A DNA stretch of 64,000 nucleotides, from the IMG/VR virus record IMGVR_UViG_3300035696_001556, positions 64,001-128,000 of that record; one strand, given 5' to 3'. The notes under the pieces were generated by a model. That model was not told the DNA's origin. It saw only the letters and a program-made list of their open reading frames with translations, and did no database searches. Below, piece by piece: positions 6,019 through 15,257 of this stretch (its first letter is position 1; every line of letters begins with the position of its first letter). A program made the position numbers and the translations under genes. This DNA comes from a virus.

Positions 6019-6915
6019 ATGTCAGTAACTTTTTATCAGGGTCAATCTTTAACGTCCAGTGATTTGAAAATAATAATAAGAGATCCGACAGGAGTCCCTA
6101 TAGATCCTTATTATATCAGATATTCTTTGTTTGATAATACGACCGGTGTACTGGTTTTAATAGGAAATCCAGATCAAATACCAGCTACTACCGGAGTAGG
6201 GCAGTATTATTCCAATGCCGTAATACCTCTGGATGCTAATCTTGGAGATTGGGTCATACAGTGGCATTTTATGCTGACTCCAACTTCTCCTCTCATCGAA
6301 GTAGTTCAAGAATTTACTGTCGTAGATAAGACTATAAATTATGAAGTAGCAACGAGCACAGCCCAAAACACTTTGATGACAAGACTGAGAATAATGCTAA
6401 GGGACAACAATCCGGATAGGAACTACCGTTTTAGACCACCATCAACTGAAAAGTTCATGCAGACTCGGACTCAAGTTTTCGGATACATCTGGGAAGATGA
6501 AGAGCTCTACGAATGTCTTCTTATGGCAGTAGATGAATTGAACTCATCGCCGCCTGTTACCAGTGTAACGTTGGATAATATACCGGATCGCTGGAGAACT
6601 AATATTTTGTTGAGAGCTGCAGCTTTCGCTTGTGATTCTGTTACAGCTAATTGGATAGTAGATGAGTATGGATATACAATAAGCGGAGTGTCTTTGGATT
6701 TGGAAAAATCTTCAAAATATCAAGCCCTCGCAGAAAGTTTTTTAACACAGTGGGATAAATCAAGAGAACTTATCAAAGCTTCCATAAAAATTATCAAAGG
6801 ATTGAGTCAGCCTCGATACGGAATAGGTATATCGAGTGCACTTGGTCCTTACAGTAGACCTGGTACTCAGTCAAGAAGAAATTTTATTTCAGGATTTCGT
6901 GGAGGATGGTCTTAA
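6019..6915 (+). CDS. Putative neck / head-tail adaptor protein
   Basis: Beta-rich N-terminal domain followed by a helical adaptor-like region (RLRIMLRD...IWEDEELYECLLMAVDELN...ISGVSLDLEKSSKYQ). Located upstream of the tail genes. Confidence 0.6.
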   Translation: MSVTFYQGQSLTSSDLKIIIRDPTGVPIDPYYIRYSLFDNTTGVLVLIGNPDQIPATTGVGQYYSNAVIPLDANLGDWVIQWHFMLTPTSPLIEVVQEFTVVDKTINYEVATSTAQNTLMTRLRIMLRDNNPDRNYRFRPPSTEKFMQTRTQVFGYIWEDEELYECLLMAVDELNSSPPVTSVTLDNIPDRWRTNILLRAAAFACDSVTANWIVDEYGYTISGVSLDLEKSSKYQALAESFLTQWDKSRELIKASIKIIKGLSQPRYGIGISSALGPYSRPGTQSRRNFISGFRGGWS

Positions 6916-6935
6916 TGGTCCTAGTTAATTTTTCC

Positions 6936-6965
6936 CTTGGATAGTGGTATGCCAAATAGTATATT
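6936..6965 (+). promoter_or_regulatory. sigma70-like promoter CTTGGAT-N17-TATATT
   Basis: TTGGAT 6937-6942, 17-nt spacer, TATATT 6960-6965, then RBS AAGGGG and ATG 6986. Confidence 0.6.
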
Positions 6966-6985
6966 ACTATTAGAAGGGGATCACT

Positions 6986-9271
6986 ATGACGATGCCAAGA
7001 AAAGGTATTACTGCTGATAGGAAGTCTCAGGAGAAACTGGACTTCCTAGTTAATAACTTCAATAGCCATACTCGTCAAGAATTAGCTAATAGTCTCAATG
7101 AATCTCCCCGTTGGGTTAAGAGACAGATTAAACTGCTAAAAGAAAAAGGATTATTAAACAACAAAAGAGATGTTTCAGATGAAATTGTTTGGCCAGAAAA
7201 AATAACTCAAAGAGCCATAGATCTAAGAACAAACAAGTTATCATCTGCTGAGGATATTTCTAAAGTTCTCAAAGAAGAGTTTAATTTTGAAGTCCCCACC
7301 TATACTGTAGAACACCATCTGATAAATAAAATAGGTTGTAAATTTCCGTCCAAAGAAGAATGGCTACATAAACATCTCCCGTATGATTATGCCAAAAAGT
7401 TGATTGAAAAAGGTAATAGAATTTCTGATATTAGTTTTATTTTAAAGAGAGATTTAGGAGTATATGTCTCCGATGATATTATCCTGCTTTATATTAAAAA
7501 AATAGGACTCGTCAGCTTAAGAGAGTATGAGGTTAACAAAATAAATGAAAAAGTTAGTTCTGTAGACAAAAGTTGGATAGAAGATAAAATAAAAGGTAGA
7601 ATAAATATGGTTAATCTGTGCAAAGAAATGGGAGCATCTAAAACGGTAGTAATTAGAAGATTAAAAAAGGAGAATCTTAAAGTCATTGATGATAGAAAAA
7701 TATGGTCAAAAAATTTAGAATATCTGAGAGACTATTTAATTAATCTCCCAAAACCCGACTTTATTATGACCAAAGAAGACATACACCAATGCATACTGGG
7801 ATGGCTTGCAGGAGATGGACACTTAAATAAAGACGGTCGTTTCGTAATTAATCATAGTCTAGCCCAGTTATCTTACTTATATGTTAAAAGACAAGTTTTG
7901 TATAGCAACTATTCTACTGTAACTACAGTACCGGCGCAGCACTATTCAATGGCTAAGGATTCTATATATTTAGGAGGAAAGGAACAGATTGGTATTTCTT
8001 GTTTAGGATTGGTAGATTATTTAAAGTATCTTAATGAAGACGGGTCAAAAAATTTTGAAAAGATTATTTCAGAATTAACAGATCTTGGCTGGGCTTGTTA
8101 TTACATGGACGATGGATCTTTTTTTTCTGGAGGTCTGACTCTGAGTATGAGCGAAAAACGGGCATCTTATTTTGAGAATAAGTATAATTTTGGCGAAATA
8201 ATTAAAACAAGTAAATCCTCTCTTAAAATTAAGAGTATCAATGCAGATTATGTCATTCCATGTATGGATAGTAAGGTACCCTTGTACTCAAACTTAGGAT
8301 CTTTTTGGATGAAGTATTTTCCTGAGATTTTTAATGTAGAGATAAGAAATGATTTTGATTTATGTTTTGTAAATAAATATATAACAGAGAAATCAGAAGG
8401 GCTGCTTAACAGAATAACAGAGTATTATCAAAAAAGAGGGTTTCCTTATTTTAATATTAATGATGATTATCTTAAGAAAGAATATGATAAGTTGAAAAAC
8501 TTAGATACCAAGTATATTTGGAGAGATGAGCACACTGTTAAATATTTAGATGTAGGTAATAGAATATTTAAGAATTTTATGCCACACATGGCGGAAGCCA
8601 GCTACAGAGGTAACTCTCCTTATAGCACTTTTAATGGCTTTTCTTCTTTAAGATCAGCACTTGTATATACACTTAAATCAAATAAAACTATCTTGCCAGA
8701 TTTTTTATTTAATAGTCTTGTATATTTTAATGGGGGAGTAGCAGGTTTTCCTTGTGGTGTCGCCAAGGCGATAGTAGAAAAATATACAGCACCGGGAGAT
8801 TTGGTAGTAGATCCTTGTGCCGGTTGGGGTGGAAGGTTGCTAGGGGCTGCTTCATCATCTAGGTCATATTTTGGATTTGAGCTTTGGGATAAAACAATTA
8901 ATGGTTTAAATTCGATTATAGACTATTATGATTTACAAGACAGAGCACAAGTGATATGTTCAGACTTTGATAGTAGTAAAGCACCTAAATCTTGCAACTT
9001 AATCTTGACATCGCCACCTTATATTGATCTGGAGGTCTATGGTAAAAGCATGAATAAAGAAAAGTGGATGCTACTTATTAATAAGATGTTTTTATATGCA
9101 GAAATGGCTTTGGTTCCCGGTGGTTTTTTTGTACTTAATATCCCCAGATATCTAAAAGAATACCTTCCCAAAACTTCTCTTCTGGAAAAAGAAACCAAGT
9201 ATTGGTTTACTTCTTCAAGAAAAAGAGACCTCTCTAGTGCTGAACTTCTGTTAGTTTGGCAAAAGTTATAA
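6986..9271 (+). CDS. Fusion of HTH repeats, LAGLIDADG endonuclease and amino (N6A/N4C) DNA methyltransferase
   Basis: HTH-like segments (TRQELANSLNESPRWVKRQI; MVNLCKEMGASKTVVIRRL), LAGLIDADG motifs ILGWLAGDGHL and WACYYMDDGS, SAM-binding motif I VVDPCAGWGGRLLGA and catalytic motif IV LILTSPPY. Confidence 0.82.
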   Translation: MTMPRKGITADRKSQEKLDFLVNNFNSHTRQELANSLNESPRWVKRQIKLLKEKGLLNNKRDVSDEIVWPEKITQRAIDLRTNKLSSAEDISKVLKEEFNFEVPTYTVEHHLINKIGCKFPSKEEWLHKHLPYDYAKKLIEKGNRISDISFILKRDLGVYVSDDIILLYIKKIGLVSLREYEVNKINEKVSSVDKSWIEDKIKGRINMVNLCKEMGASKTVVIRRLKKENLKVIDDRKIWSKNLEYLRDYLINLPKPDFIMTKEDIHQCILGWLAGDGHLNKDGRFVINHSLAQLSYLYVKRQVLYSNYSTVTTVPAQHYSMAKDSIYLGGKEQIGISCLGLVDYLKYLNEDGSKNFEKIISELTDLGWACYYMDDGSFFSGGLTLSMSEKRASYFENKYNFGEIIKTSKSSLKIKSINADYVIPCMDSKVPLYSNLGSFWMKYFPEIFNVEIRNDFDLCFVNKYITEKSEGLLNRITEYYQKRGFPYFNINDDYLKKEYDKLKNLDTKYIWRDEHTVKYLDVGNRIFKNFMPHMAEASYRGNSPYSTFNGFSSLRSALVYTLKSNKTILPDFLFNSLVYFNGGVAGFPCGVAKAIVEKYTAPGDLVVDPCAGWGGRLLGAASSSRSYFGFELWDKTINGLNSIIDYYDLQDRAQVICSDFDSSKAPKSCNLILTSPPYIDLEVYGKSMNKEKWMLLINKMFLYAEMALVPGGFFVLNIPRYLKEYLPKTSLLEKETKYWFTSSRKRDLSSAELLLVWQKL

Positions 9272-9320
9272 CCTTCTAATAAAAATCCCTAATTGACAGA
9301 CCTTGTTTTAACGAGGCATT

Positions 9321-9826
9321 ATGGATATACCATGCTTCTATGCTGTTCCTATCGCTAAAGTCCAAGTGGAATTGCGTAGATTCAAATTTTCAATATATGA
9401 TGAATCTAAGAAACTCGTAATAGAGTGCCCTGGTCCAATGGGGTATCATGATGCTGAAATCACTTTAGGAATAAAAGATAAACTGATCCCTCCAAGTTAT
9501 GAGGACTTGATCCCTTGTATCGATCACAAAGATCCTCGTTGGCCTAAAAAATGCGTGTGTGGATATGAGTTTGAAGACAAAGACGAGTGGCAGACTAACG
9601 AACATAGGACATGTGGAACGCCTGGAGGATGGGTGGAGAGAGACCAGAGTATACCTCATTGATAGTTATGACTCCTGGTGGAGAGTGGGCAATTGATATG
9701 CCTTCTATTGACGGAGGTAAGTGGAGCAGGACAGGAACGGTGCCTAAGATAAGTGTGACGCCATCGATACTTATCCCTGACAAATATCATGGATTTCTTA
9801 CTGACGGAACATTGAGAGATTGCTAA
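9321..9826 (+). pseudogene. Split DUF6527-like Cys/His protein (ORFs 9321..9662 and 9611..9826)
   Basis: Two overlapping ORFs in different frames read like the N-half (CPGPMGYHDA...CVCGYEF) and C-half (WSRTGTVPKISVTPSI...YHGFLTDG) of one protein. The second ATG has no properly spaced RBS. Confidence 0.5.
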
Positions 9827-9827
9827 T

Positions 9828-11195
9828 ATGGAAAAAAACTTCAACAGACCCTTTTTCCCTCTGCCTTATAGAAGTGGAGACGATAGGCCTCCAACTCTTC
9901 CTCTGGCACCTCGTAACGTTAACATAACGAGTCCATTTCTAATTGGGATCGTCGATGTCAGGTGGGATGATCCATCTGTTTATGCTGAAAATAACAGATT
10001 CAATATCCTAGGTGTAAATGTATATAAATCTTATGACTCCTCTGAGGGACCGTTTACAAAAATAAATACTGATCCGATAGGAATATCTTTTTATAGAGAT
10101 CAGACCCAAGAAACCACGGTGACGGAAGATCCTACCCAAGGTGGAAGATTTATAGCTGGAACAACGGCAACAAGGGATTGGATAGCTAAGTCCTACAACA
10201 AACCGATAGTTATACCTGGCACCAATGGTCAGTTAGCGGATAACTGGACTCATGTGATGGTACAGATTAAGAGAACCTCAGCCGATCAGTTCGTAGTGGT
10301 ACCGGCTTTCAAAGTAAAAGGAGAGACTGGAGAAATCTATCTTATAAGTTCACAGGTTTATAATAATACAACGAATAGATTAGAAGAACCTGTTTTGCCT
10401 TATTTAGATCGAGGTGGAGAAATAAGAATAACGTATACTTACATACCTCCTAGCAGTTATATCCAAACAGATTTGCATAGAAGAATTTACTACAAAGTGA
10501 CCACGGTAGGTATAGATGCTAGTTGCGACAGTGGTATCATGGAAACGCCGTTAAACGAAGTAGAAGCTTTTAATCCATATGATATGGAAAAAATAGATTG
10601 GATTTGGGCTGAATCAATAAGAAGAAATAGATGGATACTCGAGCAAGGCGGAGAACGTGTAAAGCTATTTATAAGGAAGTGGTCTGGAGTCAGATGTCCT
10701 TGTTGGAATGAACAGTTTAGACAGTCTAAACAGGACGATCTGCAGTGTTACGGGGTCGGATATATTGGCGGATACCAAGGCCCATTAGATATAATCATCG
10801 CTCCTCCAGAAGGTGAAAAAATAGTAAATCTTTTTGATATTGGATTACGTGTAACCTATGATTGGCCAAGTTGGACCGGCCCCTATCCCTTACTCAGTGA
10901 TCGTGATTTTATTGTGCGTCAAAACAATGATAGATTCTCGCTAGCCCATATCAATCCTCAAGGATCGAGAGGAGCCATATATCAGCAACATTTCCAATTG
11001 CATCAGTTAGAACAAGGAGACATTAGATATCAGGTTCCTATCACTGGTGGAGCTGTAAGCGTGCCTCCAGCCTGGAACGCTTTCAGAGAGCCCAAACCTA
11101 CCGATGCAAGTCCTGTTATTAACGATAAGCCTACAGTCCCTGAACAATATCAATACAAAGGCAGAAGCGTGACTTTCGAAAATATTGTGATGTAA
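9828..11195 (+). CDS. Putative neck / head-completion protein with FN3-like N-terminus and Cys motif
   Basis: APRNVNI...VRWDDP...GVNVYKS (FN3-like). GGERVKLFIRKWSGVRCPCW...QCYGVGYIGGY resembles myovirus head-completion proteins. Gene position agrees. Confidence 0.6.
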   Translation: MEKNFNRPFFPLPYRSGDDRPPTLPLAPRNVNITSPFLIGIVDVRWDDPSVYAENNRFNILGVNVYKSYDSSEGPFTKINTDPIGISFYRDQTQETTVTEDPTQGGRFIAGTTATRDWIAKSYNKPIVIPGTNGQLADNWTHVMVQIKRTSADQFVVVPAFKVKGETGEIYLISSQVYNNTTNRLEEPVLPYLDRGGEIRITYTYIPPSSYIQTDLHRRIYYKVTTVGIDASCDSGIMETPLNEVEAFNPYDMEKIDWIWAESIRRNRWILEQGGERVKLFIRKWSGVRCPCWNEQFRQSKQDDLQCYGVGYIGGYQGPLDIIIAPPEGEKIVNLFDIGLRVTYDWPSWTGPYPLLSDRDFIVRQNNDRFSLAHINPQGSRGAIYQQHFQLHQLEQGDIRYQVPITGGAVSVPPAWNAFREPKPTDASPVINDKPTVPEQYQYKGRSVTFENIVM

Positions 11196-11230: not shown

Positions 11231-11288
11231 AAAGGAATCTAAATAAATGATATCTCTCTTCTAATGAAGTCCATAAAGGAGTTCTAAA

Positions 11289-12963: not shown

Positions 12964-13009
12964 GTAAATAGAGTATTTTTGTTATAAAATCTAAAACAGG
13001 AGTTTGAAT

Positions 13010-14026
13010 ATGGCTCGCGGTTTAGACATCGGAACTTGCAATATTGTTTGTGCTTCGAAGGACCCAAAAAATCCTCAAGCAGAAATTCAAATTAGTTCTA
13101 TAAGGGATGCATTTTTAGATATTGAGGCTGACTCATCCGTTCTAAATCTATTAAAAATGTCTAATGTCTCTTATATTCAAGGAGCAGAAAATATTGTCTA
13201 TGTGATCGGGGAGCCATCGTTAAACCTAGCTAACATGTTTAAACGAGAAGCTCGAAGACCCATGAGTAAGGGGATAATATCCCCCGGAGAGCTGGAGGCA
13301 GAGAAGGTTCTTTCTATTTTAGTCAAGAATATTCTAAAAGAACCAGCAGTTGAAAAAGAAATAGTTTATTTCTCTGTTCCAGCAGCTCCTATAGATCGAG
13401 AGGGCATAAGCGTAACATATCACGAAGCTGTTCTTAAGAAAATAATAGAGAATCTAGGTTATAAGGCTGTGTTTTTAAATGAAGCAGCCGCCATAGTTTA
13501 TTCCAACTGTGAGAAGAGCGGTTTTACCGCACTATCTAGCAGCCTTGGAAGTGGCATGGTAAATACGGCCCTACTTTATAAAACACTAATTGGCATGTCT
13601 TTTTCAACGTCTTCCGCCGGTGATTATATAGACTATAGCGCAGCAAAGGCTACAGGAAGCACAGCAACTAAAATTATGACAATAAAAGAACGAGGATTAG
13701 ATTTACTTGCCCCTGAAATAGGAGATCCCAAACAGATACGAGAACGAGAGGCAATTTGTATATATTATAAGAATCTGATAAAAAGTATAATTGACAGTAT
13801 AAAAAAAGAGTTTAAAAAGAACCAAAGCACAATAGAGCTGCCAGATCAGGTTCCTTGGATTATAGCAGGAGGTAGTTGTCTTGCTAAAAATTTCTTACTT
13901 TTATTTCAACAAGAATTTTCAAAAGTCAAAGACACATTTCCTATTAATATTTCTGAGATTAAGTTGGCGGATGACCCTTTACTGGACATTGCTAAGGGAT
14001 TACTTATCGCTGCTATGAATGACTAA
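13010..14026 (+). CDS. Actin-fold ATPase (MreB/FtsA/ParM superfamily)
   Basis: Phosphate-1 GLDIGT, connect-1 LNEAAAIV, phosphate-2 SLGSGMVN, adenosine IAGGS, connect-2 DPLLDIAKG. ATG 13010 has RBS AGGAG at 7 nt spacing, better than TTG 13004. Confidence 0.85.
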   Translation: MARGLDIGTCNIVCASKDPKNPQAEIQISSIRDAFLDIEADSSVLNLLKMSNVSYIQGAENIVYVIGEPSLNLANMFKREARRPMSKGIISPGELEAEKVLSILVKNILKEPAVEKEIVYFSVPAAPIDREGISVTYHEAVLKKIIENLGYKAVFLNEAAAIVYSNCEKSGFTALSSSLGSGMVNTALLYKTLIGMSFSTSSAGDYIDYSAAKATGSTATKIMTIKERGLDLLAPEIGDPKQIREREAICIYYKNLIKSIIDSIKKEFKKNQSTIELPDQVPWIIAGGSCLAKNFLLLFQQEFSKVKDTFPINISEIKLADDPLLDIAKGLLIAAMND

Positions 14027-15194
14027 ATTTTACTTTAACATGAATAAAATAGACAAAAAAGAGTTTATTGAGAGATCCGAAAAAAAGCACGGAAAGTTTT
14101 ATAGTTATGACTTAGTTAATATTAAAGGAACAAAAATAAAAGTAAAAATAATGTGCCCTAAACATGGATTATTTTATCAAACTCCACAGGAACATATGAA
14201 GGGATGTGGGTGTAAATGTTGTGGGTATGAAAAGATTGGTCTTTCTAATTGTTCATCTAAAGAAGATGTTATATCTCTGTCAAAAAAAGTACATGGGAAT
14301 GATACATTTGACTACAGTTTATTCGAATATAAAGGTATGTTTGTTAAATCTAAGTTTATTTGTAAAATTCATGGAGTTTTTGAACAAACACCTAATAACA
14401 ATATTCACAGCCAAAATGGGTGTGATAAGTGTGGCGGCAGTTTCAAAAATTCTTTGGATAGTTTTATTAGGAAAGCAGAAAAAATTCATGGAAAAAAGTA
14501 TAACTATTCTAAATTTAAATACACAAATATATTTACTCCTTCTATAATAACATGTTTTAAACATGGCGATTTTTCACAAGATCCCAACAACCACCTGTCT
14601 GGAAGAGGGTGCCCTCAATGTGGTATCATACTATCTAGTGATAAAAAAAGATATAGCAAAGAAGAGTTTGTAGAGAAAGCAGTAAAAGCGCATGGATTTA
14701 ATAGATATGATTATTCAACTGCTGTATATAAAAGTTCTAATAAAAAAGTGGCAATAAAGTGTAATAAGTGCTTTAAAGTTTTTATGCAAACTCCTAGTAG
14801 CCATCTCACGGGAACTGGATGTCCTGTCTGTAATGAATCAAGAGGAGAAAAAAGTGTAAGGAATTGGTTGTCGGATAATAATATTTGTTTTATGTCACAG
14901 TATGTTTTTTCTAATTTAGTTGGAAAAAATGGAAATAAATTTAAATTTGATTTCTACATTCCATCTAAGAATATACTAATAGAGTTTGACGGTAGACAGC
15001 ATTTTGAACCGGTTTGTTTCAAAGGAATTTCATTAGAAAAAGCAAAAACAAATTTTAAAAAGGTAACAGGTAATGATGCTCTCAAAAATAAGTACTGTTC
15101 GGATAATAACATACCTCTGTTACGAATAAGCTACAAAAATTTTAAGAAGATCCCGGAAATACTTTCTGAAAACGTTCTAAAAGCCGCAGCATAA
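14019..15194 (+). CDS. Free-standing endonuclease with four Zn-binding repeats and a C-terminal PD-(D/E)xK/Vsr-like domain (homing-endonuclease-like)
   Basis: Four repeats of Y.YS...Y....K..I.C..HG.F.Q.P..H..G.GC..C, then ESRGE and FKFDFYIPSKNILIEFDGRQH...KNKYC..NNIPLLRISY. Visibly AT-richer than its neighbours. Confidence 0.82.
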   Translation: MTKFYFNMNKIDKKEFIERSEKKHGKFYSYDLVNIKGTKIKVKIMCPKHGLFYQTPQEHMKGCGCKCCGYEKIGLSNCSSKEDVISLSKKVHGNDTFDYSLFEYKGMFVKSKFICKIHGVFEQTPNNNIHSQNGCDKCGGSFKNSLDSFIRKAEKIHGKKYNYSKFKYTNIFTPSIITCFKHGDFSQDPNNHLSGRGCPQCGIILSSDKKRYSKEEFVEKAVKAHGFNRYDYSTAVYKSSNKKVAIKCNKCFKVFMQTPSSHLTGTGCPVCNESRGEKSVRNWLSDNNICFMSQYVFSNLVGKNGNKFKFDFYIPSKNILIEFDGRQHFEPVCFKGISLEKAKTNFKKVTGNDALKNKYCSDNNIPLLRISYKNFKKIPEILSENVLKAAA

Positions 15195-15257
15195 CTCCCC
15201 TTAATATCCTTCTAATAATTTAAGCTCAACAGATACCTCTATCTTTAAGGAAATTCT

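What the first reader, a model, noticed from the sequence alone, without database searches (positions are those of the whole stretch)
6986..9271. LAGLIDADG endonuclease fused to a DNA methyltransferase, inserted among neck genes
Seen in sequence: one 761-aa ORF carries HTH-like repeats, two LAGLIDADG motifs retaining acidic residues (GWLAGDG, YYMDDG) and a complete amino-MTase (DPCAGWGG, TSPPY). I see no intein splice motifs or flanking intron-split gene. It has its own sigma70-like promoter and is AT-rich. Established: LAGLIDADG domains recognise long targets and usually occur in introns, inteins or alone; RM fusion enzymes normally use other nuclease folds. Inference: this may be a selfish element that cuts unmethylated competitor alleles while protecting its own copy (a single-chain homing/RM hybrid), or an MTase that uses a LAGLIDADG scaffold for long-site targeting.
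Basis: partly seen in the sequence, partly recalled or inferred. Interest (0 to 1): 0.72.

Follow-up and report, generated by a model that had tools for sequence, protein, structure and literature searches.

The report
Homing nuclease fused to DNA methyltransferase
A huge uncultured phage carries, right after its head-tail connector gene, a come-and-go selfish gene that joins a rare-cutting LAGLIDADG homing nuclease to a DNA methyltransferase; I found no paper describing this pairing, which may let the element mark its own DNA while cutting rivals.

Summary
Window 6986-9271 is one intact 761-aa ORF with four parts: an HTH array, an I-SceI/I-WcaI-type double-motif LAGLIDADG domain, a helical subdomain, and a permuted SPPY-type amino-methyltransferase. 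It is not an assembly chimera. About 40 full-length homologues (33-74% identity) keep this order, and both LAGLIDADG aspartates are invariant in the 33 aligned. The methyltransferase motifs are intact in 30 of 33.

The gene behaves like a free-standing homing-endonuclease cassette:
- It always sits directly after the head-tail connector homologue (g298), behind its own conserved TTGACA-17-TATATT promoter.
- It is present in only 16 of 59 related loci, which needs at least 6-9 gains or losses.
- In relatives it is swapped for other cargo, including a homing-nuclease-like + Mom fusion.
- One relative keeps only the promoter remnant.

The methyltransferase is accessory. It is decayed or absent in a few lineages that keep the nuclease. 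Yet in six related genomes it occurs only fused to LAGLIDADG.

Whether methylation shields the carrier from its own nuclease is untested; I put that at about 0.4.

This scan met the sister family before, including a paralogue 21 kb upstream in this same genome. I found no paper on it. Verdict: a new variant of a known kind.

The parts
6019..6915 (+). g298, a conserved head-tail connector-like gene. It is the left anchor of the insertion site; the cassette always follows its stop codon.
   Evidence: 32% identity to the annotated head-tail connector of phage Tunturi_5. Every carrier locus examined has the fusion 43-215 nt after this gene. Homologues carry inteins at two positions.
6917..6928 (+). 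Junction motif GGTCCTAGTTAA (family consensus GGNCCYAG, often joined to the -35 box). Role unknown.
   Evidence: Present just after the g298 stop in 13 of 16 distinct carrier loci, with a remnant in the deletion derivative L010. It has a single exact match in the 64-kb window.
6937..6965 (+). The cassette's own sigma-70-type promoter, TTGGAT-17-TATATT. A Shine-Dalgarno-like AAGGGG follows at 6974-6979.
   Evidence: TTGACA-like/17/TATAYT lies at the same place in nearly all carrier loci and before the paralogue. The single-sequence scan alone is not above chance.
6986..7750 (+). N-terminal array of about four helix-turn-helix units (residues 1-255).
   Evidence: Weak Pfam HTH_11, HTH_Crp_2 and HTH_24 hits. 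The model is all three-helix units. The module also occurs attached to DUF7487, DUF559 and Mom domains.
7751..8275 (+). Monomeric double-motif LAGLIDADG nuclease domain (residues 256-430). The catalytic Asp codons are D277 (7814-7816) and D376 (8111-8113).
   Evidence: PF03161 above its cut-off. Model pLDDT 91.7; matches I-SceI and I-WcaI. Both Asp are invariant in 33 homologues.
8276..8725 (+). Helical subdomain (residues 431-580) that travels with the methyltransferase core.
   Evidence: Stand-alone phage methyltransferases of about 330 aa align from residue ~465-477 onward. The paralogue shares it.
8726..9271 (+). SAM-dependent amino-methyltransferase core (residues 581-761). Motif I DPCAGWGG is at 8810-8833 and motif IV TSPPY at 9008-9022.
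   Evidence: PF01555 at 39.8 bits. The two Pfam stretches lie in reversed order (profile 32-212, whose C-terminal motif I part lies on residues 586-634, then profile 2-61), so the domain is permuted relative to the beta-class model. Rossmann fold matches. Motifs nearly invariant.
9272..9282 (+). CCTTCTAATAA, a motif shared by intergenic regions upstream of structural genes. It probably belongs to the downstream gene's promoter and is not specific to the cassette.
   Evidence: Also found at 15208-15218 and, as TCTTCTAATGA, at 11257-11267, each 30-50 nt before a gene start. Similar motifs follow the fusion in relatives.
9321..9662 (+). g113, a small gene of no known family that fills the rest of the variable interval. 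It is unrelated to the ~100-aa gene found here in relatives.
   Evidence: No Pfam or PHROG hit. No similarity to the L005 97-aa protein, whereas the L049 and L005 proteins match each other at E 1e-19.
9828..11195 (+). g455, a conserved gene and the right anchor of the variable interval.
   Evidence: Homology with the closest non-carrier relative, L049, stops at the g298 stop codon (6916) and resumes at the g455 start codon (9828).

Best explanation
Window 6917-9282 is a free-standing homing-endonuclease cassette lodged between the head-tail connector gene and the next structural gene of a huge phage.

Shown:
- One promoter-equipped ORF encodes an HTH array, an I-SceI-type LAGLIDADG domain with both catalytic aspartates, and a permuted SPPY (N4-cytosine-type signature) DNA methyltransferase.
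- The cassette occupies the same junction in every carrier.
- It is absent from most relatives, exchanged for other cargo, and in one case deleted leaving only its promoter.

Inferred, about 0.75:
- The nuclease is active.
- It cuts cassette-free alleles at or near the connector-gene junction during mixed infection, so that repair copies the cassette in (intron-less homing).
- The HTH array extends or anchors site recognition.

Inferred, about 0.4: the tethered methyltransferase modifies cytosine in or beside the nuclease's target on the carrier genome. That target stays intact, because the cassette sits beside conserved coding sequence rather than inside it. Methylation would then give built-in self-immunity, and the immunity would follow automatically whenever the nuclease changes target. 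The methyltransferase becomes dispensable once the carrier's target has drifted, which would explain the few lineages where it has decayed.
For: Domains and motifs.

Conserved fusion:
- About 40 full-length homologues at 33-74% identity.
- 1942 representative proteins at E<=1e-3.
- A paralogue in the same genome shares the whole LAGLIDADG-helical-methyltransferase unit at 23% identity.

Fixed site and own promoter.

Patchy presence:
- 16 carrier and 43 non-carrier loci. Inside a 32-row clade the split is 16/16, needing at least 9 changes, of which 6 are forced by well-supported branches.
- The closest relative, L049 (76% g298 identity), lacks the cassette, with homology breaking exactly at the flanking gene ends.
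- L005 (carrier) and L007 (non-carrier) are collinear at 72-79% nt identity, with the cassette swapped for a UDG-like gene.
- L010 keeps the promoter remnant only.

Coupling of nuclease and modification:
- In the window's genome and five relatives, all six methyltransferase modules of this family lie in LAGLIDADG fusion ORFs, and a 98%-complete relative has none.
- The methyltransferase core is as conserved as the nuclease, with mean pairwise identity 0.51 against 0.49.
- The same hotspot in relatives holds an unrelated fusion, DUF7487 (PHROG 'homing endonuclease') + Mom + HTH. Its HTH is 44% identical to this protein's first HTH.
- Cytosine methylation of the target is known to inhibit LAGLIDADG meganucleases (PMC3827243).
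Against: - No cleavage, methylation or homing has been observed, and the target site is unknown.
- The fusion tree shows no well-supported conflict with the g298 tree. Vertical descent with repeated loss therefore fits as well as homing. Co-conversion of the adjacent g298 would also produce congruence.
- The methyltransferase motifs are decayed in P0007 and P0040 and altered in P0031. P0083 is a complete 489-aa HTH-LAGLIDADG gene without a methyltransferase, also directly downstream of g298. All of these keep the LAGLIDADG aspartates, so self-immunity cannot be obligatory.
- Stand-alone relatives of the methyltransferase module exist in other phages, so it may recognise DNA by itself.
- Known free-standing homing endonucleases manage with target polymorphism alone (my own knowledge of T4 Seg and Mob enzymes).
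Confidence: 0.55

Rival explanations
1. A homing endonuclease that merely carries an orphan anti-restriction methyltransferase as linked cargo. The methyltransferase modifies a short motif across the phage genome to evade host restriction, and the fusion only guarantees that it is transferred together with the nuclease.
For: - Stand-alone ~330-aa homologues in Vibrio and Staphylococcus phages are annotated as DNA methyltransferases.
- The methyltransferase is lost in some lineages without loss of the nuclease.
- The hotspot also holds counter-defence-type cargo, namely an Acb2/Tad1 hairpin protein and a UDG-like protein.
Against: - In six related genomes the module is never found unfused, and a 98%-complete relative has none.
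- The fused order has been kept for a very long time (23% identity between paralogues).
- A second nuclease-plus-modifier fusion, DUF7487-Mom, arose independently at the same site. Linkage alone does not require a fusion.
Confidence: 0.25
2. A non-mobile accessory weapon. The protein acts like a single-chain restriction-modification enzyme against co-infecting phages or host DNA. It was acquired once in the clade's ancestor and has since been lost repeatedly, without ever homing.
For: - The fusion tree and the g298 tree agree wherever branches are supported.
- All carriers fall in one 32-row clade, and the 27-row sister clade has none.
- A deletion derivative, L010, documents loss.
Against: - A strictly fixed position next to a highly conserved, intein-prone gene, together with an own promoter, is the signature of free-standing homing genes.
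- Other homing-endonuclease-type genes occupy the same junction in relatives.
- LAGLIDADG enzymes recognise long, rare sites (established knowledge, PMC3384342), which is poor for bulk DNA degradation.
Confidence: 0.12
3. A domesticated DNA-targeting scaffold. The LAGLIDADG and HTH domains only bind a long site and deliver the methyltransferase to it, as an epigenetic or regulatory mark. No cleavage occurs.
For: - WhiA shows that LAGLIDADG plus HTH can serve as a pure DNA-binding or regulatory protein (PMC3384342; WhiA appears among the fold matches).
- The methyltransferase has no obvious separate target-recognition domain.
Against: - Both metal-binding aspartates are invariant in 33 sequences down to 33% identity, including those with a dead methyltransferase.
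- WhiA-type proteins have lost these residues (PMC3384342).
- The gene is dispensable and patchy.
- A methyltransferase-less form exists.
Confidence: 0.08

Closest known systems
I-SceI / I-WcaI (monomeric double-motif LAGLIDADG homing endonucleases, Pfam PF03161)
   Same: Same fold and topology (Foldseek E 8e-6 to 5a0m; Z 14.4, rmsd 3.7, 167 aligned to 6x1j). Two LAGLIDADG helices, each ending in a conserved acidic residue. PF03161 scores above its cut-off.
   Different: Those enzymes are intron-encoded, about 230 aa, with no other domain. This one is free-standing, carries a 255-aa HTH array in front and a 330-aa methyltransferase module behind, and has no detectable sequence similarity to any solved LAGLIDADG chain.
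Free-standing homing endonucleases of T4-like phages (Seg GIY-YIG and Mob HNH families)
   Same: An intergenic, promoter-equipped, dispensable gene at a fixed spot beside a conserved gene, patchily present among relatives. Extra DNA-binding modules are attached to the nuclease. This comparison rests on my knowledge of those systems.
   Different: The nuclease fold is different (LAGLIDADG). None of those enzymes is described as carrying a DNA-modification domain, and their self-immunity rests on target-sequence differences.
Single-chain restriction-modification enzymes (Type IIC/IIG, e.g. MmeI, BcgI-like)
   Same: Nuclease and amino-methyltransferase in one polypeptide. The same logic could apply: cut unmodified DNA, spare modified DNA.
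   Different: Those enzymes use PD-(D/E)XK nucleases, recognise short sites through a dedicated specificity domain, and are cellular defence genes (my own knowledge). Here the nuclease is a long-site homing enzyme in a phage structural-gene cluster.
Sister family of ~650-710-aa HTH-LAGLIDADG-methyltransferase fusions behind the capsid gene, including the copy at G000:41010-43133 in this genome
   Same: The same LAGLIDADG-helical-methyltransferase unit in the same order (23% identity over residues 257-732). Its own TTGCAA-17-TATATT promoter. Earlier reports of this scan describe the same come-and-go behaviour.
   Different: A different insertion site (after the capsid gene), a shorter and different N-terminal HTH part, and SSPPF instead of TSPPY.
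WhiA (DUF199), a domesticated LAGLIDADG + HTH transcription factor
   Same: A LAGLIDADG fold tethered to HTH DNA-binding domains (fold matches 3hyi, 3hyj and 8dy9).
   Different: [quoted passage not shown] Here the acidic residues are invariant.

Membership tests
LAGLIDADG homing endonuclease, monomeric double-motif type (PF03161) | Two LAGLIDADG helices, each ending in a metal-binding acidic residue | tested here: met
   LGWLAGDG (D277) and YYMDDG (D376), invariant in 33 homologues.
LAGLIDADG homing endonuclease, monomeric double-motif type (PF03161) | [quoted passage not shown] | tested here: met
   Domain model pLDDT 91.7 with that order of elements. The top 15 structural matches are all LAGLIDADG proteins, led by I-WcaI at Z 14.4, rmsd 3.7, 167 aligned.
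LAGLIDADG homing endonuclease, monomeric double-motif type (PF03161) | Profile score above the curated threshold | tested here: met
   29.2 bits against a cut-off of 25; 33.3 bits in the genome scan.
LAGLIDADG homing endonuclease, monomeric double-motif type (PF03161) | Conserved basic residues in the beta1-beta2 loops that assist catalysis (K43/K130 in I-DmoI; PMC3384342) | tested here: inconclusive
   R285 in the first hairpin is nearly invariant. No residue-level superposition could be made, and no clear partner was found in the second half.
LAGLIDADG homing endonuclease, monomeric double-motif type (PF03161) | Site-specific cleavage and gene conversion (homing) | not testable with these tools
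   Only indirect evidence: a fixed site and 16 of 59 loci with the gene.
Intein- or intron-encoded homing endonuclease | Hint splicing blocks, or a host gene split around the element | tested here: not met
   No Hint or intein Pfam hit in the protein. The flanking genes are complete, and homology with non-carrier relatives breaks at their stop and start codons.
N6/N4 amino-DNA methyltransferase (PF01555) | SAM-binding motif I and catalytic motif IV (D/N/S)PP(Y/F) | tested here: met
   DPCAGWGG at 609-616 and TSPPY at 675-679, nearly invariant. LTSPPY fits the PROSITE N-4 cytosine methylase signature as I recall it (from memory).
N6/N4 amino-DNA methyltransferase (PF01555) | Profile score above the curated threshold and a Rossmann fold | tested here: met
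   39.8 bits against 26.7. The stretches lie in permuted order. TrmN gives Z 18.2, rmsd 2.4, 172 aligned. The best sequence hits among solved structures are N4-cytosine methyltransferases at E 2.6e-5, over motif I only.
N6/N4 amino-DNA methyltransferase (PF01555) | DNA (rather than RNA) substrate, and which base is modified | not testable with these tools
   The closest folds are tRNA m2G methyltransferases, while the closest sequences are phage DNA methyltransferases. The substrate is inferred, not shown.
Single-chain restriction-modification enzyme (Type IIC/IIG) | Nuclease and methyltransferase in one polypeptide | tested here: met
   One uninterrupted ORF, conserved in about 40 homologues.
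Single-chain restriction-modification enzyme (Type IIC/IIG) | Own methylation blocks own cleavage at the same recognition site | not testable with these tools
   Needs enzyme assays.
WhiA-like domesticated LAGLIDADG | Loss of the catalytic acidic residues | tested here: not met
   Both aspartates are invariant. Criterion taken from PMC3384342.

The most novel reading that the evidence does not exclude
A natural single-chain 'homing plus immunity' enzyme. The LAGLIDADG and HTH parts pick a long site beside an essential virion gene. The nuclease cuts that site in rival phages. The tethered methyltransferase marks the same site in the carrier so that it is spared. This would be a restriction-modification logic built on a homing-endonuclease fold. 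It would retarget as a unit, and it would have arisen more than once, since the DUF7487-Mom fusion occupies the same hotspot.
Probability: 0.3. Interest if true: 0.85.

Novelty: new variant of a known kind. Interest (0 to 1): 0.62.

Why it matters
- Homing endonucleases and restriction-modification systems are the two classic kinds of selfish nuclease, and they have been treated as separate solutions. One protects itself by disrupting or mutating its target; the other does so by methylation. A widespread natural fusion of a LAGLIDADG nuclease with a DNA methyltransferase would link the two. The search found 1942 matching representative proteins at E<=1e-3, of which the fusions are an uncounted subset; all 40 proteins of 633-812 aa (P0003-P0062) that carry precomputed Pfam domains include LAGLIDADG_2 and/or N6_N4_Mtase.
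- If the methyltransferase is delivered by the nuclease's own long-site recognition, these proteins are ready-made site-directed methyltransferases, or methylation-gated meganucleases.
- The locus also gives a compact picture of how huge phages trade cargo at one junction next to a virion gene.

Tried and rejected
- Nucleotide search of the locus against deposited phages: no match.
- Profile of the LAGLIDADG region against solved-structure sequences: nothing relevant. Only the fold comparison identified it.
- Fold searches with the full-length model were filled by methyltransferases, so the nuclease domain had to be folded alone.
- Single-sequence promoter scan: not above chance, and no terminator-like site.
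- I first took GGNCCYAG plus the -35 box for a general promoter of this phage. It has one exact copy in the window, and the combined pattern has none in the 173-kb record.
- I considered that the motif is a duplicated g298 3' end, or half of a hairpin with it. The matches are too weak and inconsistent across loci.
- I expected the fusion tree to conflict with the g298 tree, which would have been direct evidence of horizontal spread. No well-supported conflict appeared.
- A carrier-versus-non-carrier difference in the last 30 codons of g298 is not visible by eye. At this divergence the test has little power.
- DUF7487 has no relative among solved structures by sequence and appears in no paper.
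- Literature searches for a LAGLIDADG-methyltransferase fusion found none. The library lacks most subscription journals.
Full report
**What is there**

Window 6986-9271 (+) is one uninterrupted ORF of 761 aa. The window is part of a 173-kb virus record judged 37% complete, so it comes from a huge phage.

Pfam gives N6_N4_Mtase (39.8 bits, cut-off 26.7) and LAGLIDADG_2 (29.2 bits, cut-off 25). It also gives weak HTH hits near the N-terminus and no intein domain. PHROGs agrees, with DNA methyltransferase families and 'homing endonuclease with LAGLIDADG motif'.

An AlphaFold model built on 33 homologues has mean pLDDT 87.9. It shows four parts:
- an all-helical array of about four HTH units (residues 1-255);
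- a LAGLIDADG domain (256-430);
- a helical subdomain (431-580);
- a Rossmann methyltransferase core (581-761).

Folded alone, the LAGLIDADG domain reaches pLDDT 91.7. Its matches are I-SceI (Foldseek E 8e-6) and I-WcaI (Z 14.4, rmsd 3.7, 167 of 181 residues), followed only by other LAGLIDADG proteins.

The C-terminal part matches amino-methyltransferases of the same motif order, best TrmN (Z 18.2, rmsd 2.4, 172 aligned). At sequence level its nearest solved relatives are N4-cytosine DNA methyltransferases. A 330-aa Vibrio phage protein annotated as an N4-cytosine methylase aligns to residues 477-719.

The Pfam model matches in two pieces in reversed order: profile 32-212 on genome 72054-72887 (its C-terminal motif I part lies on residues 586-634), then profile 2-61 downstream over motif IV. 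The domain is therefore circularly permuted relative to the beta-class enzymes on which the model is built. LTSPPY fits the N4-cytosine signature as I remember it from PROSITE. The modified base is inferred, not shown.

**It is a family, not a chimera**

A protein search found about 40 full-length homologues of 744-812 aa at 33-74% identity. It also found a more distant group of about 650 aa with the same domains.

In an alignment of 33 sequences, LGW..GDG (D277) and MDDG (D375, D376) are invariant. DPCAGWGG and TSPPY are nearly so.

An exhaustive search of 1.84 billion representative proteins gave 1942 matches at E<=1e-3. They include:
- stand-alone methyltransferase modules of about 330 aa;
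- LAGLIDADG-methyltransferase units inside proteins of 1000-1560 aa;
- the HTH array attached to other homing-nuclease-type or DNA-modification domains, namely DUF7487, DUF559 and Mom.

The same genome holds a paralogue 21 kb upstream of the window (G000:41010-43133, 707 aa). It shares the whole LAGLIDADG-helical-methyltransferase unit at 23% identity. Earlier reports of this scan (e1-5653445, e1-5664893, e1-4119336, e1-5645388) describe that sister family behind the capsid gene of several phages. The kind of element has therefore been met before on other DNA. This copy is a different subfamily at a different site.

**Where it sits**

The upstream gene (6019-6915, 'g298') is 32% identical over 89% of its length to the annotated head-tail connector protein of Tunturiibacter phage Tunturi_5.

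I collected 33 viral and 67 metagenomic loci that encode a g298 homologue. In every locus that has the fusion, it starts 43-215 nt after the g298 stop codon.

After removing duplicates, and loci with too little downstream sequence, 59 loci remain. Of these, 16 carry the fusion and 43 do not. On a g298 tree, a deep clade of 27 rows has none, while its sister clade of 32 rows is split 16/16. This needs at least 9 changes of state, 6 of them forced by well-supported branches.

Several sister pairs differ in whether they carry the gene:
- L049, the closest relative of the window (76% identity in both g298 and g455), lacks the gene. Its DNA homology with the window stops exactly at the g298 stop codon and resumes exactly at the g455 start codon.
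- L005 (carrier) and L007 (non-carrier) are collinear at 72-79% nucleotide identity, with the 2.4-kb cassette replaced by a UDG-like gene.
- L010 lies inside a clade of carriers. It retains a 70-nt remnant of the cassette's promoter region, joined directly to the next gene, which is a clean deletion of the ORF.

In non-carrier loci the g298 stop is followed within 0-25 nt by a conserved ~100-aa gene beginning MAIEVEFF..LTG. In carriers such as L005, L015, L065 and L086 this same gene follows the cassette. The empty site is therefore a tight junction between two conserved coding sequences.

The window itself has an unrelated 113-aa gene downstream of the cassette.

**Cassette signals**

Nearly every carrier locus has a sigma-70-type promoter, TTGACA-like/17 nt/TATAYT, immediately before the ORF. 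In several relatives it lies so close to the start codon that the mRNA would be almost leaderless. The paralogue has one too.

In the window the promoter is TTGGAT-17-TATATT at 6937-6965. A scan of this sequence alone would not have been convincing.

Thirteen of the 16 distinct carrier loci also share GGNCCYAG right after the g298 stop (window 6917-6928). This motif is unique in the window, and I cannot assign it a role.

The motif after the ORF, CCTTCTAATAA, recurs before other structural genes at 11257 and 15208. It is probably a general promoter element of this phage.

GC content inside the gene is 0.29-0.36, against 0.37-0.45 around it.

**The hotspot**

The same junction in relatives holds other cargo:
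- proteins with DUF7487, which PHROGs labels as homing endonuclease;
- a ROS_MUCR + DUF559 protein;
- an Acb2/Tad1-hairpin protein;
- a UDG-like protein;
- PKD and beta-helix fibre proteins.

In L008 and L038 there is an 809-827-aa protein on the opposite strand that combines HTH, DUF7487 and a Mom-like DNA-modification domain. Its last 55 residues are 44% identical to the first HTH of the fusion (E 2e-10). A nuclease-type domain joined to a DNA-modifying domain has therefore arisen at this site twice, from unrelated parts.

**Is the methyltransferase needed?**

The methyltransferase core and the nuclease domain are the two best-conserved parts, with mean pairwise identity 0.51 and 0.49. The HTH array is at 0.40.

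In the window's genome and five related genomes, all six detectable methyltransferase modules of this family lie in LAGLIDADG fusion ORFs. A 98%-complete relative (the genome of L010) has none.

Against an obligatory role:
- P0007 (DPNAEWGG, TSTPL) and P0040 (EPFSWTNS, LTIPG) have lost the motifs, and P0031 has TSPPS. All three keep both LAGLIDADG aspartates.
- In P0040 the whole C-terminal half has relaxed (0.22-0.24 identity to the window protein, against 0.41-0.45 for its neighbour P0039), while the nuclease domain has not.
- P0083 is a complete 489-aa HTH-LAGLIDADG gene with no methyltransferase, also directly downstream of g298.

**Reading**

The anatomy is that of a free-standing homing endonuclease gene. 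It has its own promoter, sits at a fixed intergenic position beside a highly conserved gene, is patchily distributed, shows deletion derivatives, and is replaced by other homing-type genes. The conserved neighbour, g298, is itself hit by inteins at two positions.

The invariant aspartates argue for an active nuclease. WhiA-type domesticated proteins have lost these residues (PMC3384342).

The fusion tree does not conflict with the g298 tree. I therefore cannot distinguish an ancient acquisition followed by many losses from repeated homing. The comparison is also weak, because homing would co-convert the adjacent g298.

For the methyltransferase I favour self-immunity, at about 0.4:
- The cassette lies beside conserved coding sequence rather than inside it, so a target within g298 or the ~100-aa gene would survive in the carrier.
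- Cytosine methylation is known to block LAGLIDADG meganucleases (PMC3827243, which cites Valton et al. 2012).
- The module is only ever found fused in this clade.
- An analogous nuclease-Mom fusion exists at the same site.

The main rival, at about 0.25, is that the methyltransferase is ordinary anti-restriction cargo. None of this has been tested at the bench.

**Novelty**

Searches of the held literature found no description of a LAGLIDADG-methyltransferase fusion. The library is incomplete. I class the finding as a new variant of a known kind: a free-standing homing endonuclease with a fused DNA methyltransferase.

Noticed in passing
L008:7893-10376 (-) and L038:8530-10959 (-): In relatives, the same junction after g298 holds an 809-827-aa protein that combines HTH units, DUF7487 (PHROG 'homing endonuclease') and a Mom-like DNA-modification domain. 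This is a second, unrelated nuclease-type plus DNA-modifier fusion. Its C-terminal HTH is 44% identical to the first HTH of the window's protein.
   Followed up: partly
window 14019-15194 (+): A 391-aa HNH-type homing endonuclease gene (phrog_559 at 4e-89; DUF4379 + DUF723) sits directly after the Volactin-family gene at 13004-14026. It is followed by the same CCTTCTAATAA motif that follows the fusion gene.
   Followed up: partly
window 13004-14026 (+): A 340-aa protein matches the Pfam Volactin family (an actin-like family) at E 1.5e-57. It is conserved in synteny across the phage clade.
   Followed up: no
L003:3069-5451; L046:1118-2509; L047, L048, L065, L086, L092, L097 and others: Homologues of the connector-like gene g298 are interrupted at two different positions (after about residue 136 and after about residue 217) by inserts of 0.4-1.5 kb with intein-splicing hits. 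In L047 and L048 the insert includes a DUF559 (Vsr-like) endonuclease ORF.
   Followed up: partly
L005:13666-16443 and L042:4358-6988: The g455 homologue is interrupted after about residue 310-334 by a ~1.2-kb insert, with Hint_2/Intein_splicing hits on record for the L005 gene only. This is probably another intein in the gene that flanks the hotspot on the right.
   Followed up: no
L029:7917-8825 (+); L007:7943-8647 (+); L046:5678-6352 (+): The variable interval also carries a protein with an Acb2/Tad1 hairpin domain (a family of anti-CBASS/Thoeris sponges) and UDG-superfamily proteins. The junction therefore doubles as a site for counter-defence-type cargo.
   Followed up: no
window 9272-9282, 11257-11267, 15208-15218: The motif (C/T)CTTCTAAT(A/G)A recurs 30-50 nt upstream of structural genes, and similar motifs occur in relatives. 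It is a candidate promoter element of this phage clade.
   Followed up: partly
G000:C1:55687-55869 (outside the window): There is a weak third LAGLIDADG_2 match (E 0.006) inside an open frame of 1810 aa. Relatives have a ~1780-aa multi-glycosyltransferase with faint intein hits, so this may be an intein-borne endonuclease.
   Followed up: no
L015, L053, L058, L059, L092, L097 (upstream of the fusion ORF): In several relatives the -10 box ends only 6-10 nt before the start codon, with no Shine-Dalgarno sequence. This suggests leaderless or near-leaderless transcripts for this gene.
   Followed up: no
L122:20-2128 (P0084): A 702-aa protein joins DUF7487 to the HTH array and the LAGLIDADG domain, so it has two nuclease-type modules and no methyltransferase. 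The contig is only 2.2 kb, so its context is unknown.
   Followed up: no
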